Shown piece by piece: positions 26,100-43,545 of a stretch of DNA of 64,000 nucleotides. The notes under the pieces were generated by a model, which did not search any database, had not been told where the DNA came from, and saw only the letters and a program-made list of their open reading frames with translations. Position 1 is the first letter of the stretch, and each line of letters opens with the position of its first letter. Source of the DNA: Psilocybe cubensis. Its lineage: Eukaryota. A program made the position numbers and the translations under genes. The stretch spans positions 1,984,001-2,048,000 of the forward strand of contig CM039007.1 in NCBI GenBank assembly GCA_017499595.2, written 5' to 3'.

Positions 26100-27076
26100 T
26101 AGTTGAGGACAATCAAAGACATCAAATTTTGTATCTCAGGAACGCGAATTTTCTGGCAAAAACTAACGACGGATTCAAACTCGGACGGTCAAATAGCGTC
26201 TAAAAACACACTTTTCGTAAAATTCCCACGAGGTTTTGACCACCGCCAAATTTTTTGGCCAAAATTTTTCAAAATATAGTCATGTTACTTGGTACCGGGC
26301 AGCTCGGCGACTCCAAAATTTACCACAAATGACTCGCTGAAAAATCGGCGGGCCTACTTTTGCTTTCTCACTGCCCATGCCGATGTACTCGCCGTCAAAT
26401 CAAGATGAGCACCCGTAAAACGCCAGGAGCAATTGATGAAACAACGAATATTTTTGGTGGAACATCCTTTGGAAGTGCTTCAAGATGTGTTTTTTTGCTC
26501 AGATTCTATATCCTAGCTGCTTCTTGAAATGTCTTCTTTTCAACTTCACAATAGCAGTATTGCACAGTCATCCACAGCACTATAGACATAGTTTATGAAT
26601 ATGAATAGCCATAGCTAAAAAGTATAATAGCTTGCCAGTTCTACAGGGTTCAATTTGCAACAGAATTTTCGCTCAAAATGCATTCATGGCCTTTAGAGAA
26701 AAGAAGATTGAGGAAGTTATTGTTTTTGGCCGGAAATGTTCCTCATTTGCCTGGGTGGTCTGCCGTTAGGTGGCATCTTGCCGAATTTATTTAAGCGGAA
26801 CGGCTCGATAATTTTTTTTGATATTTCAGGCGCGAACCCAGAATATCAAAAGCTATCTAAAAATGAATTTTTCGAGAATTTAGCGAATTTTTTTGACCAC
26901 CGCCAAATTTTTTGGGAAATTTTTTCCAAAAAAGTTGAATCTGAAAAATCTGCTCGTGCAAATCGTTTAATTAGACGTAGTATTACCTATTAAAACAGTT
27001 TCGAGGCACCCTACATGTGTGTCATAGACTACATAATTCGTGCAAAAAAATTGATGTCTTTGATTGTCCTCAACTG
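26100..27076. mobile_element. Non-autonomous Tc1/mariner-type DNA transposon (MITE), 977 bp
   Basis: ~26-bp TIRs (t/c)agttgaggacaatcaaagacatcaa at 26100-26125 and 27051-27076, with TA on both flanks (26098-26099, 27077-27078). Internal direct repeat ttttgaccaccgccaaattttttgg; no transposase ORF. Confidence 0.9.
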
Positions 27077-29294
27077 TAGACCTTTGGCCTTGACCCTTGT
27101 CATTCGATCGCGTGGTTGCCGTGTGAGTTAAGATGAACTACCGTCTGACGTGAGAAACCGTCTGACTTCAGTTCCGAAATGTTGACGTCGAGCATTGAAT
27201 TGGATGACAAGGGATAGTCCGAGCACATTGGCCATTATGTAACAAGAGACTATCGGTACGCGGAGGATGTAAAGGCGCGCTTATTACGCGTATACAAGTG
27301 ACAGTGAGTAGACGAGAAGACCAGTCATTTCGGACGAGAAGTGTTGGTAAACTTCCGTAATGTGTCGATACTGTCCTGTACAATGTTCACTGCAATGATG
27401 GACTAATCTCATTACATTGAAGGAAATTTTCATGATGGGATATCCATAGGAGGTCTACACACCGCCGTCACAGTTCTGTCTCGTGTCTAGTAGAAGGTCT
27501 ACACACCGCGCGCGGTACTCAGCTTCCGTGACAGCTAAAGGTTTTGCCCAGCACATCGCATTGCAGTCTAATTCTATTGTACTGTACCTTACGTACTTGG
27601 CACCGAGAGGAGTTAGTCATATCATTATACTCCCGACGATATACATCATTATGGATCATTTTACCGTTAAACTGGACACTCTATACCATTTAGCATTGTC
27701 GATGTTGTGAGAGTCATACTGGGAATACCTTTTCGACGACAAGGATCAGCATCACTGCTGTGCTGATACCCTTCCATCAACAATCAGCATAAACCAGTTG
27801 CCGCTATCGCTTTACTACCTTTCTACCTTCCTGTTTGTCGTGCACGCGGCTCCCAATCTATCCGCTTCCCAACTGCGATGACATTATCGATTTGACTACT
27901 CATTCCGTCCATCGTCTATCATCGATTCCTAACAATGCGGTACTGTGCTGTGATGTCCCGTTGCGGAGGCAGTACTGACGCGCCTTGATAATGTTCGGTC
28001 CTCTGTGCCACCCGGACGTGGTGCGCCGCGGCTGATTAGTAAGTCACGGTTTGTCATCGTCTTTCTGCTATTGCTGACTCTGACACGACACCTGTTGTCC
28101 AAGGAGCACCCCACGGAGAATGCACTTGACGACGGATCGCGCCACGCTAGCATGCTGGTCAGGTGAGTCTCAGCCTCTTACATGTCACCCAGCACAATAC
28201 TGGGATACGACGTGGCCTACCGCGCCCGACTCACAGTCGAACTGCGTGTTATTGAACATGGGACGCGTCGTTAACCCGAATGACCAGTAGAAAAGATACG
28301 TACCCTATACGTCCTTTGTCTCCTCGCATGATGATTGACTTTGCATCCACACCTGTAGGTCAATAAACACGTTACTGCCTATACACGGATCTCCGTCTGA
28401 TTACCGTCATCACCAACAAGCCCAGTCTGACCAGTTGAGGGATGGGTGGAAGGACACTGCAATTGCTGTGCTTGGTGGGATTAGCAGATACGGGTAGGGT
28501 GACTAGATAGTGATTAATTATACCAGCTGATCTGCACGAACCTTGACATTCCCGACGCGACTTCCAAGCTGCGGCGCAGCACACATTATCGAGTATAGTA
28601 AGTGAAGTGGACTAACTGAACAGTCCATCAGCAGTGGTGGAAAACGGCGACAGACACTCAACGGGTAGGGTTCTGAGTGGGTGTTGAGGGTATGGAATGC
28701 AGGTGTATACCTGCCATGCTGAGAGACCGAGTCCAGTATCACTAACATAATACAGGTACACCTCCGTCAGTCATGACCGGACGGCGCTGAACAGACGATT
28801 GGCGGTGTTCTGAGTGTATTAGGGAGAGTGGTTTGGTATGTAATGCAGGTGCATACCAGATATGTCTGCAGTGTCCATTTATACACACTGACCCGTTTAT
28901 CGTCCAGTATACGGTCGCGGGTCGAGTCCACGCGGGTGTATCGTTGAAGTTTTGAAGGATGTGTTAGCGATGGTTGGTTGTAGTACATCCAGGTACGTAC
29001 CGCTGGTGTCTGTTGTGTAGCCCACATCCATATAGACTAACCCGCGCAGAGCTCGTTTATATTGTCCGTCGAAACAATACTACCGTACGATTCGAGTCCA
29101 TGTAAATGTTTTTAGAGCCTTGAAGGGGACTGGTGGTGTCTTGTTGGAACCTTGAAGAGGGGTGGTGGTGATGGTGACGGTTGAAGGTGAAGTGGACATT
29201 TCCATTTGCAGCGGCACGCTCGTCGCTTTGCCATTCAAGTCCGGTTACCAACATTTTCGAATCACGTCAGCTTTTGGCTCCAGGTTTAAGGTGC

Positions 29295-30400
29295 TCATCC
29301 CACTGAATACGCCTGGTCTACATCAGCAGTAGCGGCCCAAGACTGGACCAAGACTTCCCTAAGACATCCAACGAGCACGAGAATGAACTGCAACACACCA
29401 TCGACGGTGCATATCAGATATGAAGGCATGGCATCGTATGTGCCTGGTACAATCTGGGTGTTTGGAGAGGGAAAAATTGTTGGGTCAGCATACGGTCATG
29501 GATATGGGGATGATTGGAAGTGGCTTTAAAGGGAGCGACGTGAAGAGAGATTATCATTGAATCATTCACCTTTCCATCCTGCACGAGCACAGACACTAAG
29601 ATTTCGTCTGGATCACCGACGCGTCCCAGTACTTGAATATTCCGCTGATCTATTCACCGCACATACATAGGCGAAATAAACATGAGTTTTGACCCGTATT
29701 TAAGTGGGGTCTCGGTTCGAAGAACTGAAATAGGTTTAAGGAATGGAAGCAAAGAGACCTACCGCCAATATGCATCCAGCCATTCCCATGGGCAATAGCG
29801 GCATCTCTCCGAATATCGTCTTGTCCCTGTTCAAGTACAGTTTGGATGGTGATGTGCAGGAACGAGAGAAATTTGTCTGTTGCTTCATCGTATCGATATC
29901 AGAGTATCAGTTAAGAATTTTCTTGTTTTCAGATAAACAGAAAGGGTGGGGTGCAGGGCAGCATAAACCGCACCCGCCGCACTTTCTACGCGCTCAAGCA
30001 GAGAGGAAATTGAATACAAGACTTACCGTTCCCTATGAAATCATCCAACGCTGAACCCTGCCCTTCTCCATGTATTGCCCCTCCCTTCACTCCTCCTTCG
30101 ACAGTCGTCTGTACAGGAAGCCACCCAATCAATGCTTCGGAGCCCTCCCCGCCAACAGCACTAGCAGGGAAGAGTATCAAAATATGACAGTGCGAAGGCC
30201 GGGAGCACGGGTGAGAATGGCATTGGAACGGGAGTGTAATAGTAGAACAGGTCGGGCCGACGAGGGTCAGCGAATGTTATGGGATTTATTTCTGATTCCG
30301 GTTCTGGTTCATATTCGTGTTGGGTGGGGAAGTGTCGGAAGATGACGGTACTGCCCGGTCGCTGTTGTAGTATATGGCCTGCGAAGATGTTGCCTCGGTG
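29295..30400 (-). pseudogene. Frameshifted, intron-containing copy of a conserved uncharacterised fungal protein
   Basis: Exons translate FADPRRPDLFYY..PAFALSYFD (frameshift) ..LIGWLP..ALDDFIGN / DKFLSFLHITIQ..GNGWMHIG / DQRNIQVLGRVGDPDEILVSVLVQDGK / IVPGTYDAMPSYLICTVDGVLQF..*. I recognise the GWMHI..D.R..GR.GDPD.I and Y..MPSY..CT.DG motifs from a conserved fungal family. 5' end approximate. Confidence 0.65.
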
Positions 30401-30905
30401 TACGTGTATATGATATGATATGTTGCAAGGTGGTAGGTCTAGGTAGACAAGTGCTAGCCTTCCTGTACAGTGACGATCATCTTTTGCCGGTTCGAGTAAA
30501 GTCCCTTCTGAGGATTCTAAGGGTTGATGATGAAGCTTTTGGAGTGACTATGGCGTGCAATATCGTAAACGATGATTAGTGGTACTGAGATCGATGTCGC
30601 TGAGACTGAACGACAATCGACCTCGAAAAAATGGTGGAAAAAAAATCATGCTTGGGGCCCGCAGTCAAATCCGACGCGGTCCGTTTGTTTGGAATTAGCG
30701 TCAGTAGTAAACATGCCCCTATTTTATAATTCACGGTGACACCGTTCGACACCGGCAATGCCAACGACTGTTTGGCAGAGTATACAAATCATACTTTTCA
30801 GAGAGGTAAAATGCATGTTATTGAATATTGTTGTAAGGCATGGGATTAAGCAATTCGTAGGTATGAAATTGGATTTTGTAAGGCATGTAATTAAGCAATT
30901 TGTAG

Positions 30906-30907
<2 letters not shown>

Positions 30908-30956
<49 letters not shown>
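30908..30956. repeat. Poly(A) tract (~49 nt), with a second ~19-nt tract at ~30989-31007
   Basis: Directly visible. Confidence 0.95.
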
Positions 30957-30957
<1 letters not shown>

Positions 30958-31819
30958 ATAATCAGGTATTGAGGATTAGAATACAACTAAAAAAAAAAAA
31001 AAAAAAACAGACACGCACCTTATACACTTCACAAACAGGCAACTAACTATCGCCAATGACTGAGTCGACATCTAACTCCTCCGACAATACGACAAATCGC
31101 ACAGCAGACGTAAGAGATAGGTTAGGAGTGATGTCACTGTTAAAAATGGTCAATAGCAGCGATACAACGAAGAACAAGCGTAGAAATTTAAAGGAAAGCG
31201 AAACAGTAAAGAATGGGTATTTACAGAGTCAAACGGGACAGACACAGGCCTGGAGGCTATCTCAATATAAAAGCAGACCATAAGCAACGATACATGGGTC
31301 AACAACGAAAGAGTTCGTGAAACAAAACATTGCCACACGGAAACTGCACAAGGAAAAAGAGGATCAGCGGACCGAATTTGACCGTGAAACGTATGAGTTT
31401 ATGTAAATGGTTGCAGAGACACGACCCAACGCGCCAAAATTTGGCGATTAAAAAAAAAACCACAAAACCCACTTCCTTTCAATCACGGGAATTATTTAAG
31501 TTGATGGAGGTTGCTTTGCGATCGTTCGCGATTCAGTACAAAGTACATGAGCTTCATTGCATATGACATTTATTTATTTAAACTATCATTTCACCAGGTT
31601 CAGAAATATAAGACCACGTTTGTCATGAGATACACTGTCTGTGTCAGTAGAAAACTCGATCAGTGACGCCCATGTCCCTGAGGATTCCTTCGAAACGTGA
31701 ATCTACAGTATTTGTGTCAAGCAACATGTGAAACACTCCTCTATTAGCTTCACCGCATTCCGGACAGACAGACGTTGGTATAACACCACCGCCCTTCAAA
31801 CAAATCTCCATGTTATTAC

Positions 31820-33640
31820 CGACTTCGTTGTCCGCGATGGGCAACAAGAAATGTCAGTGCATGTCAGTGCATGTAAGTGCACGTCGGCACTGACATTCAC
31901 TGACAATATAATGTCTATGCACTGACATGCACTGACATCACTTAGGATTTGTGAAAAAATTGAAGTCTGTACTTCTATACAATAAAACTATGTTTATTGC
32001 AGGATTACTTAGATGGATTTTGACCGGATTTTAAGTGTCTGGAAATCTAGTATCCTCCTAGAATTATTTTAACACTGACTGCCAAGAGTTGATGCACTGA
32101 CACATGCACTGACCGCCAAGCATTTGCACTGACTGTGCACTGACATGCACTGACGGTGCACTTACATGCACTGACGATGCACTCACATGCACTGACGGTG
32201 CACTCACATGCACTGACATAAACTGACTTTCAGTAATGGTGCACTGACGATGCACTGACATTATTTTTACCTTATAATCATGTTATCTTTTATTTCAAAC
32301 GAAGAACACAATGGTAGGTAGGTAGACTGGTATGAATTACCTCTGGTCCATCAACTGTCCCAAAGACCTGCTCAACTAGGATGCACCGATGGGACTTTCT
32401 AGTTCCCTTTCCCTTTTAGCTGTGTCATAGGGACGTCCTCCCTACTAAAAAACCGCACCCAAGCTAAGGCCAATATTTCAAAGCATTGTTGCGCCTGCAG
32501 CCAAGTATGATCCCAAATCATTGTCAAACAAGCATATTGGATCATTTATACACAGGGATACTCTGAGGCGTCTATCTAATGATTCCAGCATAATTCATTC
32601 ATTTTCCAACATCTATGCTTGATTTAGTACACCGGATCATTACTTGAAAATGTAGAAAATATATGTCTACTTCTATATCTTGTTATTTAGCCATGTCTGG
32701 CCCATAAATTCCGAGACTGTATGTTTTAATCCTCCCTAAGTTAACTTTCTCACGGCCCACGACTTTCAATCTAACAAGTAAAAACTTTGCCACCACACGA
32801 TGAACTAACCAACGCACTAACATAACCCAGGACGCACTGACACACCCTGACCAATTTATAGATGATTTGAAACATGCACTGACACTGCACTGACATCACT
32901 GCAGTTTACACTGACATTGCTGTGGTATGCACTGACATGCACTGACCGCACTGACATTGCACTGACATTTTCCAGTGCCCGTCCGCGATGTACCTACGAG
33001 CAAGCGAATGGCGATTAGAGGAATACACGTACAGAAGACACGCAGAAGAAGATATACACACAATACATACCATGGATGATAAGAACGGTTACACATGAAG
33101 TGCACGCTGGGAAGATCGAGCTGGTCGATGTAACTGGAGCACCTTGTCATAGAACACCCGAGACTCTTCTGTGTTTGTCAATTCAGCAAATTGCTTTATC
33201 CTGTCAACGATCTCCAGACGATACGATTTCGTGAGAGCTTGATCCTACGAAAGGAAAAACAACGAACAGATTAAATAGAAAGGGAAACTTACATTCTGAA
33301 TTTCACTCCTACTTTCCTTGATCGTCTTGATCAACCATTGCTTCATTAAACCGACACTCGCCACTCCATTTCGACTCAAAACTTGTAAGACTCCCAAGGA
33401 GAATCAATTGCACGTCGTCGATATGCTCCAGGATGTCCTTCAAACCAGTTTGATGTCGGTTAAGCAGCTCCGGCGTCGAGGTCAAGAACCTCAGAACAAG
33501 CGAGTATAGATGAGGACAGGCCTTTCCTTGGTACATGAGATGCTCGATAACCTCCTGCAACGCGTCGGGTGTGTTGCCTTCTTTGTCTTTGTCCATCCAA
33601 AAGCGTAGAACATCTTCATACATACCATCTTCTCCTAGAG
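31820..33640 (-). pseudogene. VPS11: Captured 3' fragment of VPS11/PEP5 (clathrin-repeat end to RING), frameshifted and interrupted by a MULE-like MITE
   Basis: GMYEDVLRFWMDKD..HLYSLVLRFLTSTPELL..(frameshift) GVLQVLSRNGVASVGLMKQWLI..EIQN / DQALTKSYRLE.. TRCS..QLDLPSVHFMCNRSYHP / YIADNEV, with two native-looking introns retained. Confidence 0.85.
31839..32980. mobile_element. Non-autonomous Mutator-like (MULE) DNA transposon, 1142 bp, with cactgacatg subterminal repeats
   Basis: Perfect 9-bp TSD gtccgcgat at 31830-31838 and 32981-32989. Imperfect TIRs gggca..aaatgtcagtgc / gcactgacattt..tgccc. Many gcactgacat copies at 31855-31940, 32070-32260 and 32835-32970. Confidence 0.9.
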
Positions 33641-33799
33641 TAACACGAGTCCGCCAGTGAAGCGGTATAGAAAAGCACAGCGATACCAAGATACCCATTG
33701 AGGTACATACCCTAATCCAAGCATGAGAAAGTCTGTACAACCTACAGTCTACATGAAATTTTAATGTCTATCATAATCACAAGAAAACAGAGGCAGCGT

Positions 33800-33976
33800 A
33801 CAAACGCTGATTAATGTAAACGACAAAATATTCTGCTTCACGTCTTTCTTCGGCTGCTCCATCACAGCCGTGTTCTGCACCAGAGACGGTGCGTGGAAGT
33901 CGAACGAGAAGAGCTCGTTTTCAGGTGCTTTGGGCTGTGCCGCCTGCGCCTGCGCGGGCGCGGGGTGGGAGTACAT
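33800..33976 (-). pseudogene. Short captured fragment resembling the middle region of a fungal ArfGAP (Age2/SMAP-type)
   Basis: ..QPKAPENELFSFDFHAPS..QPKKDVKQNILS, resembling the DLFSLDF / KKDVKQDILSLF motifs I recall from basidiomycete ArfGAPs. GC-rich island in AT-rich context. Confidence 0.45.
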
Positions 33977-34277
33977 TAGTCACAGCATAATAAGTGGACA
34001 TTGGTTGGGTGGATAGTCACAGTAATATGAACTGATAGATTGCCACGCGCTTGGAGTTTTCCGAGATTGATACTGGGCATACAGTCTAAAGAGCGCAAAA
34101 TCACCACAGACGGATAATTGGAATGAAACAGTATTCACCTTCCCATCCAGAACTCTATGACAAGGGTTTAATTTCAACAGGAAGTTGTATTATTCCACGG
34201 TGTCTAGGATTTACCCTTCAGTAGCGGGTACATAGATATTACATCAACAAAAAGTATGAATAAACCATATAACATGT

Positions 34278-35591
34278 TCAAGAAAGGTCAAGGAGATGAT
34301 TACCGAACTGTCCGTCTAAAATAGCGTCTTCCATAGTTGGGGGGATATACGCCAGCGCCATCTCCTCGAGAAAAAAACCAGCTTTCAGTTCCCCAGGGAC
34401 GATAGGGATAAGATCATCGATCCCCTAAAAACTCGTCAACTGAATCCCAAATTCAGACGAACAATGTCATACTTTGTTACATGTACCGTACAATTGCTTG
34501 TACCCAAGAGACACCAGAAGGGCGTCTGCTTTGCATTCCACGTACCGATTCAGGTCGTCTAATGGAATGTCTATCTCGGAAAGGTCCAGCAAATCTATAA
34601 TATTCAGCATGCTAATCAGACACGGACCATTAAAAAACAAACCATTATCATACCACTGCCGAATTTTTTTTCGATTTTAACAATGGTCCCGACGAATTCG
34701 TTGACAAAACTGGTTAACGGACGCCTTTTCAAATGATAAAAAAGCAGCGAGACAAAGTCTACATGACATTCCCTGTCATTGAAGATCCGGGTGTAAGTAG
34801 ATACCATAGTTGGGAGGTAATCTTTGCCAGAAAACCATTGTAGAAGCCGGGACAGAGAAATACCAAATATTCCTTGAATGAATATAAAAACGAGCAACCT
34901 CTCAGAGAAAGGATACACGGAAGATCTCGTCCAAATATTCATAAATTTTTCCTTTGGACGCAAGAGTTCCCATTCATCGACGCAATCGTCCATTCGAATT
35001 CCTGTGAGACCGTGCGTAATCTTGGCCATCGCCTCCTGGTGGACGTTTTCACTGTTAGAACGTTGTTAATCGAATCCTGAGATAAATCCATGTATAAAAA
35101 ATTCACACCCACTTGACCGACTGGAAACTGAAATAGCAATGTGCTTCTGGGACTGTAATTTCTTTGGAGATTATATCCAATAGTCGCTTATGTATCCCAT
35201 GAGAAGCAATAGAAAGTTTGAAAAAGAAGATGCCACCGCATCGTTGTTGGAATGACAGACACTCAGTCCAATCCTTAGAGTCACGTGATAAACCAGCACA
35301 ACGTGCTTCCCATAACGTCGTCACAGCATGCAAGTATGCTTTCCAAATCTGAACAGGGCAGTTCCAAGGCAATTCAAACAAAGTTAGTCCCGAAGGAAAA
35401 AATGTTACATTAACAACAACACCTTAATGTACCGAATGGGAAAGAGAACAAAACGCCGCGAATCCTTAGCGAGTAGTCGCTCCTGCGCATCAAGAATAAG
35501 AATTCGAGCGGGAGAGAACCTATGAATCTCTATCATAACATTACAAACACAACAAACCGCGACATTTGAGGCGCTCACCAAGATTCGCCAT
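34278..35591 (-). CDS. RNR2-like: Divergent ribonucleotide reductase small subunit (R2/beta) homologue lacking the radical Tyr and several di-iron ligands (pseudo-enzyme)
   Basis: Exons 35591-35579 (tentative), 35529-35423, 35348-35113, 35051-34654, 34594-34473 and 34424-34278. All introns are GT..AG and phases are consistent: 1023 nt = 340 aa with no internal stop. Motifs ERLLAKDSRRFVLFPIRY, IWKAY..LSRDSKDW, EITVPEAHCYFSFQ, ENVHQEAM, FSERLLVFIFIQGIF, NDRECHVDFVSLLFYHLKRRP, YVECKADALLVSLGYKQLY, KAGFF follow eukaryotic R2 order. Confidence 0.85.
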
Positions 35592-35715
35592 AACAATGGA
35601 GCTGTGAACTTGCGCACACTGACTCTGTCTGACGACCTGACCTTAAATCTACGTCGCGGTTTACACATAAAGAGACTCAGAATGCAATACACCGTCACTT
35701 ACAACACGAGCTAAG

Positions 35716-36116
35716 ACTTGCATACATCATCACGTAAACATAAGCACGTACACTTCCTCCCACGATGGGTAAAAGTGCTGGCTAGTTAGCGTGATAGTTG
35801 CTATTACTCATATGATCTGACAACCAAACAAAATAACAACACACGGCGGACAAAGTGTTGCTTACTTGGTGTTACGTGAGCAGTTCGTGACTGGACCCAA
35901 TTAAACACAAGCTAAGTGACAGTAATACTTGCATACGTCATCACGTAAACATAAACACGTACACTTCCTCCCACGATGGGTAAAAGTGCTGACTAGTTAG
36001 CGTGATAGTTGCTATTACTCATATGATCTGACAACCAAACAAAATAACAACACACGGCGGACAAAGTGTCGCCTACTTGGTGTTACATGAACAGTTCGTG
36101 ACTGGACCCAATTAAA
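35716..36116. repeat. Tandem duplication of a 190-bp unit (period 211 bp) between the R2-like gene and the Rep-helicase
   Basis: acttgcatac..ggacccaattaaa at 35716-35905 and 35927-36116, differing by only a few substitutions. Confidence 0.95.
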
Positions 36117-36529
36117 GAATCATTGAACGAATTTCAGTAACAGTACCAGATACCATACACAGACAAAACTCTATATAAACGAGTACACCCTATTTAAATA
36201 AGACAAAAGACCAGAACAGATAAAATCAACACCAACGCCCCGACAGACCCATTTCCAGATATATTGAAGAATGGTGAGCGCTTACAAAAACTTATAGTAG
36301 AACTATCTGTCAAATTACACAACGCAGACCACTTATATTAACACACAAAACACGGTATCGTCGTTGAAAGCGTCGACTCTGCAACGCGGTAAGTAATCGT
36401 TTTACCTATGGGAATTATCGCTGATGAAAAATTCGATTCGTCACCTTGTATCCAATTCAAATCTGGTTAAACTTGAAACTTGATATTAAATGAATTTAAA
36501 TTGACACGGATTAATTCCGATTTCACGCG

Positions 36530-39500
36530 TTGGACGAAATTTCAGATATCGATATCTACAGGTACAAACCCGAATATAGCCGTCCATATGTAGAAAAGCT
36601 TAAAGTGTTACGTTTCAACGAATATTACAAGTTCACCACAATATGGCTTTATCATGATGACGCTATAAAACACATAAATGACACTACAAATCTCGTATTC
36701 ACTGTCAGTATCTCTGTACTGATGTTCTGGTTCAGATATTTTACTATGAATGACATGAAAGCCATAGCCGATTCCCATGGCATACAATTTTCCCGTTTAA
36801 CTAAACCCAAACTATTCGCTAAGATATTTGAACACCAATGCAGTAGCAAATGCAGTAACTTGATATATGTTTTCAAATGCATGGCAAGACCACGTCAACA
36901 TATATTCAGTATTTTCGAAGAACGGTGTGGCAATTTCGATTTTGAAAGACGAACTGTTGCCAAAGAAAATTTGAACAACCCACCACAAGACAATCCTGGT
37001 ATAGACTGCGCGGATACGATTACAGAATCACAGCAACCCAATCGAGTTAAAGCGGTCCCCATCGACGAAGATCATCTTAAACCTATCGGGAAAGATGAAA
37101 AATTAAAAATTATACGGGAATGGAAACAAGAAATGTCTACGGACAGACTGTCCAATGTAGTATGCGCGGCATGCGCTTTGAGGTTTTTCAAGCGCGATTG
37201 TATATGGGTAAACCCAGACAATACCAAGCTGAATCTACTACAAAATCCACACTTGCCAGATTCAATTTTACCTAAGACTTATGATATCAAGATTTACAGA
37301 AAGGCCATACTGCATTATAAAGGCATGGAATACCGTGATCGTATTGGCAAGCTATGTCTCTGTCCAAAATGTGACAAAGCACTAGCGGCCTTCACTATGC
37401 CTAAATTTGCTTTGTGTAACTGGATGTATTATGGAATTGAAAGTTTACCAGAAACCGTGAAGACGGCGATAGAACATTCAACTATCTTCGACAGGATGTT
37501 ATGTTCGCGAGCACGGTCCAGTGTAATCACGTGCAGATTGAACCACACCACACAAACAGAAGACAAAGACGACAACGAAAATACGTTGAGTCGAGCTAGG
37601 AAAGGTATAAGAGGAAACGTTCTAGTATCACCGCTAGACGTGATACGCATGAACAATGTTATACCACCTGCGTCTGACACGATAAGGGACACAATGTGTG
37701 CTATATTCATCGGTAAAGATCTACCTAACCGTAAGACCATTCACAGATATAAACCTACCTTAGTCCGAAGATCGAGGGTAAAGACAATAATACACTTTCT
37801 ATTAACCGAAAATCCAGAATACTCTGCGAGCACCGAGTACAGCGAAGAGAATATGAGACTTTTGTTTGACAACGACAAAGACGAGGGTATACCACACGCC
37901 GTACATATAGGCGCTATGACCGATAACGACGCCATCAGCTCAGCCGTCGCAGATTATACATGTCGAAATGTGGATGAAAATTCAAAGGACGAATTATACA
38001 ATGAATTACTGATGGAAAATGTAGGATATACATCTGGAGACAACTCACCACAGGCATTCCTGACTATGAAATCAACTGCTTTGGAGAGATGTCTCACTGG
38101 GAAACCATTCCTGGCTTCTGGTACAGGATCTAGTATGGTACCTGACTTTCAAAATCCATCGATCTTGACATGGTTATTCCCCCATCTGGACCCTTGGGGT
38201 ATCGGAGGGTTTTACCATCCCGGACGAAAGATTAAAATAAGCATGGAGGAACAACTCAAACATCTTCTTTTAGTAGACGACAGCCCGTTTGCGAAAGACC
38301 CAGAATTCGCGTTTATTTTCTATAACATATGTCGGAAGGCACTAGTGTCCCAGAGTCTACGTTTCTCGGTATCCCAATCGTCACACAAGAAAATAGCTAA
38401 CGAACTGTTAAATATCGATTTAGACATGTTAAGTCACTTAACCAAAGAATGTGAGAAAAATCCGTATTACAAACCAACAGAAACAAAAGAAAAAGAAGCT
38501 TTTAGACTACTGTCTTCGATCAGACTGGTATCAAAACACGTACCCGGGAGCGATGGCTACAAACTAACTCTACGTAACCAAATCAGGGCATTGATTAATA
38601 ATAAAGGAACACCAACACTATTCATCACTATCAACCCGTCTGACGTGGACAACCCTATCGTACGTCTGTTAGCGGGTGAGGATATTTCATTGGAAAGTAT
38701 CGAACGAGGAGAGGACTGGACGAAATGGAGAAGATCACTCTTTGCAGCACGGAACCCTTCAGGATGTGCACGTTTTTTTGACCTAATGATAAACAACTTC
38801 ATTAACGTCATATTACGATACGGGCGCGAGGAAAATGGTTTATACGGCAAATGTACAGCGTACTACGGTACTGTCGAGGCACAAGGTAAAGGAACATTAC
38901 ATTGCCACATGCTGATTTGGTTGCACGGGCACTTATCTCCCCAGAAACTACGCGATGAAATGACCCGATCAATACATTATCAAACAAGAGTGTTCATGTG
39001 GATCGAATCTATAATTCAATGTGAATTTCCAAACTCAGTAGGATCCGAACAACAGACTAACGATTACCCCCGACGAATACTATCTACTGAAACAGGTGAT
39101 CCTCATCCAGGTGTAATACAATCACCTTCCCCACAAAATTATACCGATATAAACCAATTTTGGCTCGAGTTCGACTTCTTCCTGGAGCGAATCTTACATC
39201 AGTACGCATGGCACGAGCACCAAGCAACGTGCTGGAAATACCTTGAACGAGGTCAATCCAAATCAGACAATAATTGCAGAATGGGTATAAATGGGCAGAC
39301 CTTGGAAAAGACTACATTAGACGAAATAACAAAAGAGATACTACTCCGCAGACACCATCCAAGATTAGCGCAACACACTGATATAGTATCATTCTTATTG
39401 CAGTGCAACATGGACATTAAATTCGTAGGGTCAGGAGATGCAGCAAAAGCGTTCTTGTACTATGTTACTGATTATATAACAAAGGCATCTCTACCAGTTC

Positions 39501-42391
39501 ATGCAGGTATGGCCGCGTTGTCGTATGCTGTAAGTAAAGCGTACAGCAAAATGTCCGCAAATCAATCAGAAATATCAGACAATCAAACAGTGGGTGCCAT
39601 CATAACAGCTGTTAATAGTATGATGGGCAGACAGGAAATATCACAACCACAAGTAATGAGCTATCTAGTAGGCGGAGGCGACCACTACACATCTCACAAA
39701 TTTGCTATACTCAAATGGCACAGTATAAGAAGGTTTTGCATGTCTCATCACACTAAATCCAATCAGACGCCCAACAACAGCACATTAGACGACGTAAGCA
39801 ATACCAACGAACAAGAAAACGAAGAGTCAGTTGAGTTAAATATGGGTGACAGAGACATAACGGCGTCCAACCAACGACTGGACTATTGTTTAAGACCAGC
39901 GAACGACAAATTCATAGATTTGTGTTTGTATGACTTTGTAGCATGGGGTATCAAACAACGGTATACCAAAGAAATGTTACACATTGAAACAGCAGTACGT
40001 CCAGGATCATTCTTAAACGACGAGCACCCTGAGTATTTCACCCATTATATGACAATCAGAAGAAAAAGTTGTATACCAATTATACTAGGCCCTTCTATTC
40101 CGAATCCATTGAAGTCTGATCAACTAAAAGATGACTGGGCAAGGGACATGTTACTCCTCTTCAAACCGTGGAGGGATATATCAGATTTAAAGACCCCATC
40201 AGAAACATGGACAGACGCATTTCATAACTACGAGATATCAATGAAACTAGAACACACGCGCATCATACAGAACATGCAAGCTTTGACAGAATGTAGCGAG
40301 GCCCGCGACGCACACAGGCAGCGCAGACGTGGAAAAACATCCGAGGATGTAGTGTCCGATGAAGTACAGGATATAATATTAACAGACACGGAAGGTAATA
40401 CAGACACCCTCAACCCTAACGATGTATACTCTCCAGATCCCTTCCAATGCATTGAAAACCCCAACGAAGACTTTACAACAAACTTACACGACTCCATAGA
40501 TAACATAGGAGAGGAAACTTCAAGATTTCTAGACATGTGTCTCCCACTGGATACAACGGAAACTGCTGTGGACACGGAATATCAAAAATCAGTTCCAGTA
40601 AACCAACAAACTCTAACATCACATGAAGTGGATGATCTGTTAGCAAGCCATCGCGCCATCATGAAATCAAAAAGAAAACGTGCAATGCTACATGAACCCG
40701 ACACAGACGACATAACTACGCCACCCAAACGATATCGCAATGGGAACTATGCACCTATTGCCAAGCAAGCTATACTCCAGGATTTGTATGATTTAAGTCA
40801 TAATTACAATTCAATAACAGACACTGACACCATGAACAACATCGCAGAAGAAATGGGACTTTTAAATAACCCAGAACAGCTAAAGGCGTTCCGAATCATC
40901 GGTAACCATATCATAACCGACAACAAGGAACAGTTGCTGATTCATATTGCAGGCGTTGGCGGTACAGGTAAATCCCATTTGATAAAATGTCTGATTATGT
41001 TATTCGAGCGCTTGCATCGCAGGAATGAGTTATTATTAGGAGCACCGACCGGAATAGCGGCAGTGCTGATCGGAGGACAAACACTACACTCACTGATAGT
41101 ATCTCATGCAAATCAGTCACAAGCAAAACCCAATAAACTTAAACTAATTCAAATTTGGAAATACATAAAAACTTTAATAATAGACGAGACCTCAATGATA
41201 AGCGCAAAATTCCTCAGTGAAATCTCTATCAGAATTAGGCAAGGGAAAGGAGATGACGTCGTTAACAGCAATAAACCATTCGGAGGAATTAATGTAATAT
41301 TTATGGGCGACTGCGCACAACTAAAACCCCCTCTACAAAAGCCATTATATGCAAATGAATTGGTGAAGAACCCGTCTTTTGCAGAAGCTCGGAACGTGTC
41401 AGGACCATCACAACTAAATGGCGCATTTCTATGGAGACAAGTAAAAACAGTGATACAACTAGTCAAAAACGAAAGACACGCAAGAGACATAAAGTATGCC
41501 CTTTTTCTTGATAGACTAAGATTGGGCCTCTGCAGAAGTAATATTAACAATATTAAAAGTGACAATGAACAGTCAGATTACCATTATATATATAACAGAC
41601 TTATCCAGAAACAGGCTTCTAATCCAAAAACACTAGCATTGTTCAGAGATGCACCTATCATTGTAGGCAACAAGGCCGTACGAGACATCCTGAATGCCAA
41701 GCTAATCAAGTACCATTCAACAAAAGCAAATATATCACCACATATATACTATTCACGAGATGAGAGACACAAAAAAAGGATTACAGGTGAGTTCCAACAG
41801 ATATTATGGAGACTACCTTCAACAAAAACAAACGACGCCCTTGGAAAACTACCTCTTTTCATTGGAATGAAAGTAATGATAACAGAAAACATTGCATTCG
41901 ATGATAAAATAGTCAATGGCACTGAGGGTATAGTCACAGACATAAAATATGAAGTGGACGAGAAATACCGTCGATACTGCAAAGCTGTGTATGTACACGT
42001 CAAAGGTTGTGGAATACAAGTAGACGGGCTAGAAAAAGATGTTGTTCCAATTTTCCCTTCTTCGACTTCAATAGATGTTAAATACCAAAAGCATATCAAA
42101 TTGTTTGACAGCTTTACACGGAAACAAGTCCCACTAATACCAGCGTATGCGTACACAGACTATAAAGGACAAGGTCGCACACTTGATAGGGTAATTGTTG
42201 ATTTATTAACGGCAAGAGGTCAAGGTGCATATGTAATGCTCTCCAGAGTAAAATCCATATCTGGATTACTAGTTCTACGATGGTTCCCTGAGAATAAAAT
42301 ATACAATCGGTTACCTGAAGAACTGCGCAACGAGTTAAACAGACTGGACAACATAGCGAAGTCCGACGTCGAACAATCTAGACCAATCTAG
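36530..42391 (+). CDS. Helitron Rep-helicase transposase (Helitron2/HLE2 type): N-terminal Cys/DUF6570-like region, HUH-Y2 Rep, PIF1-family SF1 helicase
   Basis: 1953-codon uninterrupted ORF. Rep motifs PTLFITINPSD, VEAQGKGTLHCHMLIW (HUH), YYVTDYITK (Y2). Helicase motifs GVGGTGKS, IIDETSMI, GDCAQLKP, AYAYTDYKGQGRTL, AYVMLSRV. N-terminal CPKC..PKFALCNWMYYG, RGNVLVSP, LFPHLDPWGIGGF. True start uncertain (track starts at TTG; possible small 5' introns at ~36270-36400). Confidence 0.95.
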   Translation: MDEISDIDIYRYKPEYSRPYVEKLKVLRFNEYYKFTTIWLYHDDAIKHINDTTNLVFTVSISVLMFWFRYFTMNDMKAIADSHGIQFSRLTKPKLFAKIFEHQCSSKCSNLIYVFKCMARPRQHIFSIFEERCGNFDFERRTVAKENLNNPPQDNPGIDCADTITESQQPNRVKAVPIDEDHLKPIGKDEKLKIIREWKQEMSTDRLSNVVCAACALRFFKRDCIWVNPDNTKLNLLQNPHLPDSILPKTYDIKIYRKAILHYKGMEYRDRIGKLCLCPKCDKALAAFTMPKFALCNWMYYGIESLPETVKTAIEHSTIFDRMLCSRARSSVITCRLNHTTQTEDKDDNENTLSRARKGIRGNVLVSPLDVIRMNNVIPPASDTIRDTMCAIFIGKDLPNRKTIHRYKPTLVRRSRVKTIIHFLLTENPEYSASTEYSEENMRLLFDNDKDEGIPHAVHIGAMTDNDAISSAVADYTCRNVDENSKDELYNELLMENVGYTSGDNSPQAFLTMKSTALERCLTGKPFLASGTGSSMVPDFQNPSILTWLFPHLDPWGIGGFYHPGRKIKISMEEQLKHLLLVDDSPFAKDPEFAFIFYNICRKALVSQSLRFSVSQSSHKKIANELLNIDLDMLSHLTKECEKNPYYKPTETKEKEAFRLLSSIRLVSKHVPGSDGYKLTLRNQIRALINNKGTPTLFITINPSDVDNPIVRLLAGEDISLESIERGEDWTKWRRSLFAARNPSGCARFFDLMINNFINVILRYGREENGLYGKCTAYYGTVEAQGKGTLHCHMLIWLHGHLSPQKLRDEMTRSIHYQTRVFMWIESIIQCEFPNSVGSEQQTNDYPRRILSTETGDPHPGVIQSPSPQNYTDINQFWLEFDFFLERILHQYAWHEHQATCWKYLERGQSKSDNNCRMGINGQTLEKTTLDEITKEILLRRHHPRLAQHTDIVSFLLQCNMDIKFVGSGDAAKAFLYYVTDYITKASLPVHAGMAALSYAVSKAYSKMSANQSEISDNQTVGAIITAVNSMMGRQEISQPQVMSYLVGGGDHYTSHKFAILKWHSIRRFCMSHHTKSNQTPNNSTLDDVSNTNEQENEESVELNMGDRDITASNQRLDYCLRPANDKFIDLCLYDFVAWGIKQRYTKEMLHIETAVRPGSFLNDEHPEYFTHYMTIRRKSCIPIILGPSIPNPLKSDQLKDDWARDMLLLFKPWRDISDLKTPSETWTDAFHNYEISMKLEHTRIIQNMQALTECSEARDAHRQRRRGKTSEDVVSDEVQDIILTDTEGNTDTLNPNDVYSPDPFQCIENPNEDFTTNLHDSIDNIGEETSRFLDMCLPLDTTETAVDTEYQKSVPVNQQTLTSHEVDDLLASHRAIMKSKRKRAMLHEPDTDDITTPPKRYRNGNYAPIAKQAILQDLYDLSHNYNSITDTDTMNNIAEEMGLLNNPEQLKAFRIIGNHIITDNKEQLLIHIAGVGGTGKSHLIKCLIMLFERLHRRNELLLGAPTGIAAVLIGGQTLHSLIVSHANQSQAKPNKLKLIQIWKYIKTLIIDETSMISAKFLSEISIRIRQGKGDDVVNSNKPFGGINVIFMGDCAQLKPPLQKPLYANELVKNPSFAEARNVSGPSQLNGAFLWRQVKTVIQLVKNERHARDIKYALFLDRLRLGLCRSNINNIKSDNEQSDYHYIYNRLIQKQASNPKTLALFRDAPIIVGNKAVRDILNAKLIKYHSTKANISPHIYYSRDERHKKRITGEFQQILWRLPSTKTNDALGKLPLFIGMKVMITENIAFDDKIVNGTEGIVTDIKYEVDEKYRRYCKAVYVHVKGCGIQVDGLEKDVVPIFPSSTSIDVKYQKHIKLFDSFTRKQVPLIPAYAYTDYKGQGRTLDRVIVDLLTARGQGAYVMLSRVKSISGLLVLRWFPENKIYNRLPEELRNELNRLDNIAKSDVEQSRPI

Positions 42392-42442
42392 ACCGAACGA
42401 GACCACCTATTTCCTTTTATAGAAAAATGCTACCACCCTAAA

Positions 42443-42475
42443 CCTGGACTTAAAGAGTCCAGGCATAAACTCTAC
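42443..42475 (+). mobile_element. Putative Helitron 3' terminus: 8-bp stem hairpin followed by ..ctac
   Basis: cctggact-taaag-agtccagg (42443-42463) lies 52 nt after the Rep-helicase stop, followed by cataaactctac. Sequence immediately beyond is the start of an intron of the truncated protease gene. Confidence 0.7.
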
Positions 42476-42492
42476 ACAACAAATATCCTCAC

Positions 42493-43545
42493 AGATTTCG
42501 CGGTGCCCATGAGCCCATCGTCCGGGGACTGCGCGGAAAACTCTACCGATTCGATGCTGGCTACGCCGAATGTATGAGCAGGCAGCGCCAATCCCGCAAT
42601 GGTGACGTCGTCTGTGATGATGTTCCCCGATACAGACCCCGAGCCATATGTGATTTTGAAAGGTTTGCCGGTGTCGTTGAACGAGGTAGAGCTCTGTGGG
42701 CCGAGGAAGACGTGGTTGCCCTGGTAAAATGCTCATGTTAATGGTGTGGTGGTGGTGATGGTTTGTGAGAGGGTGAGGGAAGACGTACGCAGCCGATACC
42801 GTTTGACGTGCAGTCTTCGGAGCCTACCCAGAAGTCTGATGAGCCTGAATCCATTGTAACAAGGAAGTCCCTCGGTGGGGTGCCGATTTGGACTACAGCA
42901 GAATAGCCAACGTCAACTGCCCTATTTTATTAAAAAAAGAAAAAGGAGTGGGTCGGTGATAAGCACGATCCTTCATTCCAAAAAAAAAATAGTAGACTCA
43001 CTCGATATCCAACCCGAGAGAGTTGGGCGCGGTAGGTGTATTAGCGACAGTAACACCATCATCAATGAGCGCGTCATTCTGCTTCGGGGCCTCCGCAAGA
43101 GACACGGCTTCGTGCGCAGACGAGTGAGCCGCGGGTGCAGGGAGCCCAAAACGGTTGAACCGCCTCGACAGCCCCTCGACTCCTTCGACATCGCGCACGC
43201 GGCGCTCGAGGAGCGTGTGGAGGTCCCGCGCGCTAGGCGCCTCGTGCCCCCTCATGCGCGCCATACGGCGCAGCCCGCGGTTGATGTGCTGTTGCAGGTA
43301 CTACAAACGTTACAAATCGTTCGTTCAATATTTTAGTTTCATGAGATTTCGTTGTATGTGAAGGTGTATGCACTTACGATTTGACCGTGTACATCCCTTG
43401 TGCGCTCGGCGCGTTTAAGAGGGAGCGTAACGAACTTGGGCGGCGTCGGCGCACGTTTCGTGACAGGTGCGGACTCGGCAACCTGCGCGAACATGACGAA
43501 GAGCACGCTCGTCAAGATGGTAGTGAAAGACAGAGAGAGATGCAT
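42493..43545 (-). pseudogene. Secreted pepsin-like (A1) aspartic protease, 5' half only, truncated at the Helitron end
   Basis: Signal peptide MHLSLSFTTILTSVLFVMFAQVAESAP, propeptide VTLPLKR, then ..VQIGTPPRDFLVTMDSGSSDFWV (first catalytic Asp), FKITYGSGSVSG (flap), DGLMGTAKS|gtgagg. No second D(T/S)G lobe follows. Confidence 0.9.

What the first reader, a model, noticed from the sequence alone, without database searches (positions are those of the whole stretch)
34278..35591. Intact 'dead' ribonucleotide-reductase small subunit encoded head-to-head with a Helitron Rep-helicase
Seen: a six-exon (first exon tentative), stop-free 340-aa frame hidden from the ORF track by splicing, collinear with eukaryotic R2 over its whole length. 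It sits <1 kb from, and divergent to, the Rep-helicase. Against the canonical R2 motifs: ASDGI->ASHGI (first Fe ligand Asp->His); ENIHSETY->ENVHQEAM (Glu/His kept, radical Tyr->Met); VEGIF->IQGIF (Glu->Gln); RDEGLH->NDRECH (Glu displaced, His kept). The C-terminal R1-binding FTLDxDF-type tail is replaced by NHLLDLS. Known: a radical-less R2 cannot be catalytic, but yeast Rnr4 shows ligand-deficient R2 can act as a heterodimer partner, and large DNA viruses carry RNR genes to raise dNTP supply. Inference: extensive divergence with intact frame and splice sites suggests selection on the protein. It may be a transposon-borne R2 decoy or partner that modulates host RNR (or titrates RNR inhibitors) during rolling-circle replication. 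I know of no description of this in Helitrons.
Basis: partly seen in the sequence, partly recalled or inferred. Interest (0 to 1): 0.9.

Follow-up and report, generated by a model that had tools for sequence, protein, structure and literature searches.

The report
Helitron-borne dead ribonucleotide reductase subunit
A rolling-circle transposon of a mushroom genome carries its own copy of the small subunit of the enzyme that makes DNA building blocks, here in a catalytically dead but still intact form, and related transposons carry the same gene in working-looking and dead versions.

Summary
Six exons on the minus strand (34278-35591, five GT..AG introns) give, letter for letter, a 340-aa protein. 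A public source already names it 'ribonucleoside-diphosphate reductase small chain [Psilocybe cubensis]'. It has the R2 fold but lacks the radical tyrosine, three of six metal ligands and the usual R1-binding tail.

It faces an intact 1958-codon Helitron Rep-helicase frame. At least five near-identical copies are annotated in that species.

The new result: I examined 19 related Rep-helicase loci from metagenome contigs that had enough upstream DNA. Ten carry an R2 homologue in the same head-to-head position, with the same exon borders. Three of these keep every catalytic residue; seven are degenerate in different ways.

So R2 is an old accessory gene of this Helitron lineage, not a chance neighbour. 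The window holds a dead derivative whose frame has been kept open by selection (0 of 400 neutral simulations stay stop-free).

What the dead protein does is untested. I favour an Rnr4-like non-catalytic partner of host R2; slow decay is the main rival. I found no description in print. The element's 5' end and expression remain open.

The parts
34278..35591 (-). R2-like gene. Six exons: 35591-35579, 35529-35423, 35348-35113, 35051-34654, 34594-34473, 34424-34278 (stop included). It encodes 340 aa and is catalytically dead.
   Evidence: The joined CDS equals P0001 exactly. Pfam PF00268 matches. The fold is R2. The motif changes are shown.
35592..36514 (.). Divergent intergenic region between the R2-like gene and the Rep-helicase frame. 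It holds two tandem copies of a unit of about 211 bp (35712-35905 and 35923-36116, 96% alike). I infer it is a shared promoter region.
   Evidence: the repeat finder family D4; sequence read. Promoter function was not tested.
36515..42391 (+). Helitron Rep-helicase open frame, 1958 codons, first ATG at 36722. Motifs: HUH at 38897-38914, two-tyrosine motif at 39458-39484, Walker A at 40952-40975, Walker B at 41177-41194.
   Evidence: ORF list; Pfam Helitron_like_N, DUF6570 and PIF1; motifs. Relatives are 34-55% identical in 60 metagenome loci and up to 52% identical in agaric proteins.
42443..42465 (+). 3' end of the element. An 8-bp perfect hairpin (CCTGGACT / AGTCCAGG, 42443-42463) is followed by CA. 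Other copies and other strains diverge after 42465.
   Evidence: Sequence. Loose ends of X9 and X14 contigs lie at 42465/42466. An X14 contig shares only 42377-42465. An X9 contig joins 42466 onward to other DNA.
33309..33976 (-). Second passenger gene, P0002 (204 aa, two exons, no known family). It is copied together with the R2-like gene.
   Evidence: The protein maps to 33976-33803 and ...-33312. In three pairs its accession number follows that of an R2-like copy directly. It has no Pfam hit and no Atlas hit.
27079..33308 (.). DNA left of the passenger genes. In two runs it has the same read or contig depth as the element. It may be the 5' part of the element; the 5' end is not settled. Other strains differ from the window at 27078|27079.
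   Evidence: Depths, the X13 loose end at 27078 and the X9 contig that starts at 27050. In the related pair L017/L022, likeness runs 9.35 kb upstream of Rep-helicase.

Best explanation
The gene is an accessory gene of a Helitron lineage of agaric fungi and descends from a eukaryotic ribonucleotide reductase small subunit (R2).

Shown:
- It lies upstream of the Rep-helicase gene and points away from it.
- It is copied with the element within the species.
- Sister Helitrons hold a homologous gene at the same place, with the same exon borders.
- Some of those sister copies keep all catalytic residues. Others, like this one, have lost them.

Inferred, step 1. The ancestral gene gave the element its own supply of the limiting RNR subunit while it replicated by rolling circle. 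Large DNA viruses and p53R2 do the same for DNA synthesis outside S phase.

Inferred, step 2. The window's copy can make no radical, because the tyrosine and three metal ligands are gone. It has an altered tail. Yet selection has kept it as an open, spliceable, R2-fold protein.

Inferred, step 3 (about 35% likely). It still pairs with the host's R2 through the usual dimer face. It then acts as a non-catalytic beta-prime subunit or as a decoy, in the manner of yeast Rnr4, and tunes host RNR activity or its control.

My odds: passenger gene of the Helitron lineage about 0.9; frame kept by selection about 0.7.
For: Copies within the species.
- The identical 340-aa protein carries four accession numbers and a UniRef name saying n=5.
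- Three of these accessions are followed by the next number for the neighbour P0002.
- A 468-aa fused model and a 214-aa partial model add further loci.

Depth in sequencing runs.
- In X11, depth is even over 33341-42216 (41-71 in 14 of 14 bins).
- In X9, contigs 33473-35774 and 36040-42406 have depths of 20.6 and 24.9 and break only at the tandem repeat.

Related loci. A scan with a Rep-helicase alignment gave 60 loci.
- An R2 profile hit only 10 loci plus the window. Every hit is on the minus strand, 0.5-1.9 kb upstream of Rep-helicase. There are no hits elsewhere in 521,547 bases.
- That is 10 of the 19 loci that have the Rep-helicase N-terminus and at least 1.6 kb of upstream DNA.
- The exon borders are shared, at profile positions about 52, 130, 267 and 310.
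- L005, L015 and L031 keep D, E, H, Y, E, E and H. The other seven loci and the window do not.

Gene inside the element. The near-identical L001 and L011/L041 share only 8209-21243, with R2 inside that stretch. L017 and L022 share 9.35 kb upstream of Rep-helicase.

Trees.
- The window's Rep-helicase groups with R2-bearing loci (support 91).
- With other long branches left out, the 11 Helitron R2s form one side of a branch (support 86).

Selection.
- 0 of 400 unconstrained simulations reach 32% identity without a stop; the mean is 11 stops.
- 24 of 38 highly conserved R2 columns are kept.
- dN/dS is 0.19 for the dead pair L001/L011 (15 differences: 5, 1 and 9 by codon position) and 0.20 for the live pair L015/L031 (7 differences).

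Pairing. The complex model of Agaricus R2 (used as a stand-in for the host protein) with P0001 scores 0.88, against a best of 3 controls of 0.00. That mark was reached by 51 of 78 solved complexes and 2 of 108 mismatched pairs. The runs agree in at least 91% of contacts, and the partner's pLDDT is at least 84. Like complexes are solved (R2 dimers, yeast Y2Y4), so the pass may come from memory.
Against: - The gene is dispensable: 9 of the 19 examined loci lack it and hold unrelated ORFs upstream.
- L022 has a frameshift and a stop, and L017 lacks a detectable middle part.
- Dead copies evolve much faster than the Rep-helicase beside them. Window against L001 is 25% for R2 and 52% for Rep-helicase. 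The live pair L005/L015 is 71% against 62%. This fits strongly relaxed constraint.
- The dimer-face residues named by the model are no better conserved than the rest: 10 of 28 against 73 of 243, Fisher p 0.52.
- dN/dS rests on very few differences, and L017/L022 give 0.31-0.55.
- The single-origin branch has support 86 only. The clade of dead copies (97) may be long-branch attraction. With Rnr4-like and chytrid sequences included, the window's protein joins those instead.
- All ten R2-bearing loci come from a few related metagenome records, so the taxonomic breadth is unknown.
- No protein closer than 32% identity exists outside the species among 1.84 billion representatives.
- The 5' end of the window's element is not mapped. 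The two flanks do not fit a simple insertion.
Confidence: 0.55

Rival explanations
1. Relic on its way out. The Helitron once carried a working R2. In this sublineage the gene lost its function and is drifting. The frame is still open only because decay is slow or the loss is recent, and the protein does nothing for the element or the host.
For: - The gene has been lost from 9 of 19 loci.
- L022 is broken and L017 is partly undetectable.
- Dead copies diverge far faster than Rep-helicase: 25% against 52%.
- The catalytic positions hold different residues in each dead lineage.
- The dimer face is not specially conserved.
Against: - Unconstrained change to this divergence leaves no open frame in 0 of 400 runs, and only 3 of 400 stay open even at 73% identity.
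- All five introns keep GT..AG.
- Exons 3-5 are open in the window and in L001/L011, L009/L013 and L007.
- 24 of 38 conserved fold columns are kept.
- dN/dS is 0.19 in L001/L011, though on few differences.
Confidence: 0.27
2. New function unrelated to RNR. The ferritin-like helical bundle was kept as a scaffold for some other role that serves the element. It might, for example, bind another host factor or a metal through the remaining His, Glu, His and His residues. It would not pair with host R2 or R1.
For: - The radical site, three ligands and the canonical R1-binding tail are all gone.
- The interface is no more conserved than the rest of the protein.
- The terminal branch is very long, at 2.1-2.4 changes per site.
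Against: No positive sign of another activity was found. The only family match is R2. The model still builds the standard R2 dimer with a canonical partner (with the caveat that it may come from memory).
Confidence: 0.13
3. Ordinary host paralogue of R2 that merely lies beside a Helitron insertion, or an artefact of assembly or annotation.
For: A public annotation lists it simply as an RNR small chain.
Against: - Near-identical copies lie at five or more loci.
- The same arrangement is found in 10 of 19 related loci.
- Independent runs hold the stretch.
- No orthologue exists in other annotated fungi.
Confidence: 0.03

Closest known systems
Yeast Rnr4 (beta-prime), the non-catalytic R2 paralogue that pairs with Rnr2 (PDB 1jk0, 1sms). 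Its role is recalled from the literature; the structures were matched.
   Same: It has the R2 fold with several metal ligands replaced, so it cannot make the radical itself. The window's protein is modelled in the same dimer arrangement.
   Different: Rnr4-like sequences keep the tyrosine and the F..D.DF-type tail, and Rnr4 is a single-copy host gene. The window's protein has lost both features, is carried by a transposon, and is not an orthologue. The two group in trees only through long branches.
Genes carried by Helitrons: the cap genes of the Pleurotus HELPO1 family (PMC4289320, passages read) and the RPA-like genes of plant Helitrons (mentioned in PMC5148889, passages read).
   Same: It is a whole gene inside a Helitron that is copied with it. 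Agaric Helitrons with passenger genes are on record.
   Different: The HELPO1 cap genes lie downstream of RepHel and have no known family. No R2 or RNR gene is mentioned: 'ribonucleotide' and 'reductase' occur 0 times in PMC4289320. Here the gene lies upstream, points away from RepHel, has a clear enzymatic ancestry, and is conserved across several deep branches of the Rep-helicase tree.
RNR subunit genes of large DNA viruses and phages, including catalytically dead viral RNR homologues with new roles (betaherpesvirus R1 homologues).
   Same: A selfish replicon carries its own copy of an RNR subunit. Both live and dead forms exist.
   Different: The carrier here is a eukaryotic DNA transposon without a capsid. 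Only the small subunit is carried. The gene has fungal-type introns.
Canonical eukaryotic R2 (Agaricus bisporus P0006, human RRM2 and p53R2).
   Same: The fold is the same (TM 0.90 by target), and W53, E120, H123, H215 and 24 of 38 highly conserved columns are kept.
   Different: Identity is 25-32%. The Asp, two Glu and the Tyr are replaced, and the tail is different.

Membership tests
Class Ia RNR small subunit (R2, Pfam PF00268) | Sequence and fold homology to the ferritin-like R2 family | tested here: met
   PF00268 matches at E 1.8e-15 on exon 4, with two further exons matching. Foldseek gives human RRM2 at E 1e-13 and TM 0.90.
Class Ia RNR small subunit (R2, Pfam PF00268) | Six metal ligands (Asp, Glu, His, Glu, Glu, His) | tested here: not met
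   The changes are Asp->His, Glu->Gln and Glu->Arg. Glu120, His123 and His215 are kept.
Class Ia RNR small subunit (R2, Pfam PF00268) | Radical-bearing tyrosine | tested here: not met
   Met127 stands where 93% of 113 aligned R2 sequences have Tyr.
Class Ia RNR small subunit (R2, Pfam PF00268) | C-terminal R1-binding tail (F..D.DF type) | tested here: not met
   The protein ends ...GNHLLDLS, while canonical sequences end ...FTIDEDF or similar.
Rnr4-type non-catalytic beta-prime | Orthology with Saccharomycetaceae Rnr4 | tested here: not met
   The two group only as long branches. When those are removed, the protein joins the Helitron R2 set.
Rnr4-type non-catalytic beta-prime | Forms a heterodimer with the catalytic R2 | tested here: inconclusive
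   The model scores 0.88 against a best control of 0.00, but like complexes are solved and a stand-in partner was used. The interface is not specially conserved.
Helitron (autonomous) | One protein with a Rep (HUH, two tyrosines) domain and a PIF1-like helicase domain | tested here: met
   Pfam Helitron_like_N and PIF1 match a 1958-codon open frame. The motifs are located.
Helitron (autonomous) | Defined termini (5' TC, 3' hairpin with CTRR, insertion between A and T) or the Helitron2-type ends | tested here: inconclusive
   The 3' end is mapped at 42465, two bases after a hairpin, and there is no CTRR. The 5' end was not found, and no inverted match to the 3' end exists.
Helitron passenger gene | Lies inside the element and is copied with it | tested here: met
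   Copies lie at five or more annotated loci. In relatives the gene is inside the shared stretch (L001 8209-21243; L017/L022). For the window's own copies, adjacency to Rep-helicase rests on depth and contigs only.

The most novel reading that the evidence does not exclude
A lineage of fungal Helitrons has kept an RNR small-subunit gene as a replication accessory, much as large DNA viruses do. After losing catalysis, some members turned it into a regulatory pseudoenzyme. This protein would pair with host R2, or soak up its inhibitors or degradation machinery. The transposon would thereby raise or re-time the host's dNTP supply for its own rolling-circle replication. That would be a transposon manipulating host nucleotide metabolism.
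Probability: 0.3. Interest if true: 0.85.

Novelty: new variant of a known kind. Interest (0 to 1): 0.72.

Why it matters
Helitrons are known for picking up host gene fragments. Accessory genes that are kept across a whole lineage are few (RPA-like genes, endonuclease, OTU). A conserved RNR subunit would be the first nucleotide-metabolism gene of that kind in a eukaryotic DNA transposon. It would parallel the auxiliary RNR genes of viruses.

The live and dead versions side by side form a natural series. With it one can ask what a radical-less R2 is good for, and whether dNTP supply limits rolling-circle transposition.

The near-identical copies, and an insertion site that differs between strains, suggest the element was active recently in a cultivable mushroom. 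That makes experiments feasible.

Tried and rejected
- **Whole genome.** None is held for this window, so copies could not be aligned directly.
- **Translating long stretches for Pfam.** Single ORFs were used instead.
- **Expression.** No RNA holder was listed for the stretch. In the two runs guessed to be RNA (X13, X14), no contig lay on 33975-42216, although spliced contigs cover the neighbouring protease gene. Contigs show presence, not absence, so this says nothing on expression.
- **Rep-helicase copies by accession number.** The protein search in the 1076-3427 aa range found no copy from the species itself; the best hit was 52%. Adjacency by accession number could therefore not be checked.
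- **5' end.**
  - No inverted or direct match to the 3' terminal 100 bases lies in 20000-36600.
  - No perfect hairpin with a stem of 8 or more lies in 24000-36600.
  - The 5' terminal words of L017/L022 and L001 are absent from the window.
- **Simple insertion into the protease intron.** Rejected. The mRNA's next 30 letters are nowhere in the window at up to 3 mismatches. No second protease motif is found.
- **A relic of the canonical R2 tail in the start of P0002 (..ELFSFDF).** Rejected. tblastn of canonical R2 finds nothing there at E up to 50.
- **Close relatives of the dead protein in metagenome contigs.** None: 248 pattern matches, 0 confirmed.
- **Origin of the gene by tree.** Not resolved. 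The IQ-TREE mixture run did not finish, and FastTree joins long branches.
- **Other shared passenger genes.** tblastx of 20000-36500 against all loci finds only the R2 exons. P0002 has no hit in the loci.
- **Upstream ORFs of loci without R2.** They have no Pfam family, apart from a weak F-box hint in one of ten, and no likeness to R2.
- **Earlier notes of this scan.** Nothing relevant was found.
- **Rfam on 24000-46000.** No match.
- **Papers.** These full-text searches found no description of an RNR gene in a Helitron:
  - 'Helitron' + 'ribonucleotide reductase' + 'fungi': 5 papers, listing seen, none on this.
  - 'Helitron' + 'ribonucleoside-diphosphate reductase': 2 papers, unrelated.
  - 'Helitron' + 'RNR2' + 'captured': 0 papers.
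  - 'Psilocybe cubensis' + 'Helitron': 1 paper, unrelated.
  - 'Helitron' / 'dNTP' / 'accessory gene': listing seen.
  - Supplementary files were not open and may list Helitron cargo genes.
Full report
**1. The observation.**

The minus strand between 34278 and 35591 holds six exons separated by five introns of 48-74 nt, each with GT..AG ends. Joined by coordinates, the 1023 bases translate letter for letter into P0001, a 340-aa protein. The protein search returned P0001 with the source name 'Ribonucleoside-diphosphate reductase small chain [Psilocybe cubensis]'.

The exon ORFs match Pfam PF00268 at E 1.8e-15, 4.3e-07 and 0.0012. They also match solved R2 chains: yeast Rnr2 at 3.4e-10, then Rnr4 and human M2 and M2B. 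An AlphaFold2 model built on 114 aligned sequences has pLDDT 85 and pTM 0.83, with a disordered last 40 residues. Its best solved match is human RRM2 (3olj, E 1e-13, TM 0.90 by target, rmsd 1.9 A).

- Asp->His at the first ligand.
- Glu and His kept but Tyr->Met in ENIHSETY.
- Glu->Gln in VEGIF.
- Glu->Arg with His kept in RDEGxH.
- The end is ...NHLLDLS instead of F..D.DF.

Of 38 columns that are at least 85% conserved among 113 other R2 sequences, the protein keeps 24. The 14 changed columns include the catalytic ones.

**2. The neighbour.**

The plus strand holds an uninterrupted frame of 1958 codons at 36515-42391. It matches Helitron_like_N (3e-36), DUF6570 and PIF1. It carries the HUH motif, the two-tyrosine motif and Walker A and B. 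The two genes point away from each other. The gap is 923 bp to the start of the open frame and 1130 bp to its first ATG. This region holds a tandem duplication of about 211 bp.

**3. Is the gene part of the transposon? Evidence within the species.**

The exact look-up shows the 340-aa protein under four accession numbers and a UniRef name saying n=5. Three of the accession numbers are directly followed by the number of a 204-aa hypothetical protein, P0002. P0002 is the next gene downstream in the window, at 33309-33976. A 468-aa model fuses the two genes, and a 214-aa partial model exists as well. The pair of genes therefore stands at five or more loci in near-identical form.

I laid two DNA runs on 27001-46000.
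- In the raw reads of X11, depth is even across both passenger genes and the Rep-helicase: 41-71 in 14 of 14 bins.
- In X9, one contig covers 33473-35774 (depth 20.6) and another covers 36040-42406 (depth 24.9). The only break lies in the tandem repeat.
- Minor variants at 33806 and 40810 are each seen in a quarter to a third of X11 reads and are fixed in X9.

The right end of the repeated unit is sharp.
- Contigs of X9 and X14 run up to 42465/42466 and then continue with unlike letters.
- One X14 contig shares only the last 89 bases (42377-42465), between other sequences.
- An X9 contig joins 42466 onward to 407 other letters.

This end lies two bases after a perfect 8-bp hairpin at 42443-42463.

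I could not place the 5' end.
- Depth left of the passenger genes, back to 27001, equals that of the element.
- Other strains differ from the window at 27078|27079.
- The flanks do not fit a simple insertion. The aspartic protease gene on the right stops at an exon border at 42493. Its mRNA in other strains continues with letters that are nowhere in the window.

**4. Evidence from relatives, the main new result.**

The dead protein has no close kin. Among 1.84 billion representatives, the best match outside the species is 28-32% identical, and the top hits are ordinary R2 of animals and fungi. A pattern scan of metagenome contigs found none either.

The Rep-helicase does have many relatives in agarics, up to 52% identical. 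An alignment of 17 of them brought 60 metagenome loci with up to 10 kb of flank.
- tblastn, and a profile built from 71 canonical R2 sequences, found R2 pieces in ten loci: L001, L005, L007, L009, L011, L013, L015, L017, L022 and L031. There were no hits elsewhere in 521,547 bases.
- Every hit is on the strand opposite to Rep-helicase. The R2 5' end faces the Rep-helicase 5' end at 0.5-1.9 kb.
- Nineteen loci contain the Rep-helicase N-terminus and at least 1.6 kb of upstream DNA. Ten have R2 and nine do not.
- The ten loci fall into six lineages: L015~L031 (99.4% alike), L005, L001~L011 (96.5%), L009~L013 (99.2%), L007, and L017~L022 (78-86%).
- All come from a few related records, so the taxonomic spread is unknown.
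- The exon borders fall at the same profile positions as in the window, about 52, 130, 267 and 310.

**5. Live and dead versions.**

L005, L015 and L031 keep the Asp, Glu, His, Tyr, Glu, Glu and His. They are 63-64% identical to Agaricus R2. They cover the profile without gaps.

The other seven loci and the window have lost the tyrosine, which is replaced by Cys, Leu, His or Met. They have lost different ligands.

L022 has a frameshift and a stop. L017 lacks a detectable middle part. In L001 the R2 frame ends after exon 5, 45 bases from the element's end.

Relatives also show that the gene lies inside the element.
- L001 and the pair L011/L041 are 95-97% alike only over L001 8209-21243, with unlike DNA on both sides and R2 at the left edge.
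- L017 and L022 are alike from 9.35 kb upstream of Rep-helicase onward, beginning with TCTAA[AT]CTAC.

**6. History.**

In the Rep-helicase tree, the window groups with L007, L001/L011 and L009/L013 (support 91). The live-R2 loci L005 and L015/L031 form another clade together with L006, which lacks R2 (support 100). Lineages without R2 are scattered between these.

In R2 trees the window's protein has a very long branch, 2.1-2.4 changes per site against a median of 0.5-0.7.
- With Rnr4-like and chytrid degenerate R2 included, it joins them. I read that as long-branch attraction.
- Without them, all 11 Helitron R2 rows form one side of a branch (support 86), and the eight dead ones form a set with support 97.

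Each dead copy is closer to live or canonical R2 (30-43%) than to other dead copies (24-34%). The dead state may therefore have arisen once or several times.

One old capture followed by losses is the simplest reading, but it is not proven.

The GC3 of the window's gene is 0.46. That is nearer to the Rep-helicase (0.39) than to most neighbouring host ORFs (0.52-0.68, with two at 0.39-0.43).

**7. Selection.**

For selection:
- Random substitution on the window's CDS down to 32% identity gives 11 stops on average, and 0 of 400 runs stay open. At 73% identity, 3 of 400 stay open.
- dN/dS is 0.19 for L001/L011 (15 differences: 5, 1 and 9 by codon position).
- dN/dS is 0.20 for L015/L031 (7 differences).
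- dN/dS is 0.31-0.55 for L017/L022.
- For the live pair L005/L015, dN is 0.28 with third positions saturated.

Against strong constraint:
- Dead R2 diverges much faster than the Rep-helicase next to it: 25% against 52% for window versus L001.
- Live R2 diverges more slowly than its Rep-helicase: 71% against 62%.

I conclude that the frame and fold have been kept but most positions are free.

**8. Mechanism.**

The protein cannot form the diiron-tyrosyl cofactor. This follows from established knowledge of class Ia R2.

A complex model with Agaricus R2, used as a stand-in for the host protein, places it in the standard R2 dimer.
- The score is 0.88, against a best of 3 controls of 0.00.
- That mark was reached by 51 of 78 solved complexes and 2 of 108 mismatched pairs.
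- The runs agree in at least 91% of contacts, and the partner's pLDDT is at least 84.

R2 dimers and the yeast Y2Y4 heterodimer are solved, so the pass shows likeness and not binding. The residues at that face are not better conserved than the rest: 10 of 28 against 73 of 243, p 0.52.

I therefore rank the possibilities as follows:
- An Rnr4-like partner or decoy of host RNR, about 35%.
- Slow decay, about 27%.
- An unrelated new role, about 13%.

**9. Known or new.**

The protein is annotated automatically as an RNR small chain. I found no paper that links an RNR gene to a Helitron.

The Pleurotus study of agaric Helitrons describes passenger genes downstream of RepHel that have no known family, and it does not mention reductase (passages read). 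The Fusarium study mentions RPA-like genes only (passages read). Supplements were not open.

I class the finding as a new variant of a known kind: an accessory gene kept across a Helitron lineage, with a pseudoenzyme derivative.

Noticed in passing
window 31840-32980: A 1141-bp non-autonomous element with terminal inverted repeats (GGCAACAAGAAATGTCAGTGC... / ...GCACTGACATTTTCCAGTGCCC). It has many GCACTGACAT-like subterminal repeats and a 10-bp target duplication, GTCCGCGATG, which makes it Mutator-like. Read depth in X11 is 3-6 times that of its surroundings, and hundreds of loose read ends sit at both borders.
   Followed up: partly
window 42493-43578 (minus strand): This is the 5' half of an aspartic protease gene (Pfam Asp profile positions 2-113 of 315, plus a signal peptide). 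It ends at an exon border 28 bases from the Helitron end. The rest of the gene is not in the window. In other strains, spliced mRNA contigs continue for about 1.5 kb with other letters. The element's insertion, or a rearrangement at it, seems to have broken this gene in the window's strain.
   Followed up: partly
L005 6848-7192; L015 and L031 8278-8409: The catalytically intact Helitron R2 copies end in ...SRFEL or ...NKFEL, not in the canonical F..D.DF tail. This end is shared by two lineages that are only 71% alike. The window's dead copy ends ...LLDLS, which may be the same motif in changed form. Even the live copies may therefore contact R1 differently.
   Followed up: no
window 33309-33976 (minus strand): P0002 is a 204-aa protein of no known family that is copied with the R2-like gene. 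It is absent from all 60 related loci. An X14 contig (RNA by guess) matches 33341-33965 and then continues with unlike letters, so part of P0002 may stem from an expressed host gene.
   Followed up: partly
window 30218-30447: A 235-base contig of very high depth (342) in X13 matches here with 14 differences and 2 gaps. About a third of X11 reads carry the same differences. The window thus holds a diverged copy of part of a highly expressed locus, possibly a captured fragment. Rfam finds nothing.
   Followed up: no
window 42377-42465: An X14 contig of 2181 letters holds exactly these last 89 bases of the element, without any difference. On one side is a diverged Rep-helicase end, and on the other is unrelated sequence. 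Another Helitron subfamily seems to share this 3' terminus and to be transcribed.
   Followed up: no
L003 8583-9350, L006 2746-3624, L008 8602-9252, L010 8616-9245, L012 8125-8961, L018 8268-8990 (all minus strand): Related Helitron loci without R2 have other open frames of 210-293 aa in the same upstream, divergent position. They have no Pfam family and no likeness to R2. The slot upstream of Rep-helicase may hold exchangeable cargo.
   Followed up: partly
L001 8209-21243; L017 from about 655; L022 from about 1165: The elements of this lineage are large. One is 13 kb, with 5.5 kb downstream of Rep-helicase. Another has 9.35 kb upstream of Rep-helicase. The termini differ between families: L001 starts AAGCATCTTG... 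and ends ...TATATGCAG, while L017 and L022 start TCTAA[AT]CTAC.
   Followed up: partly
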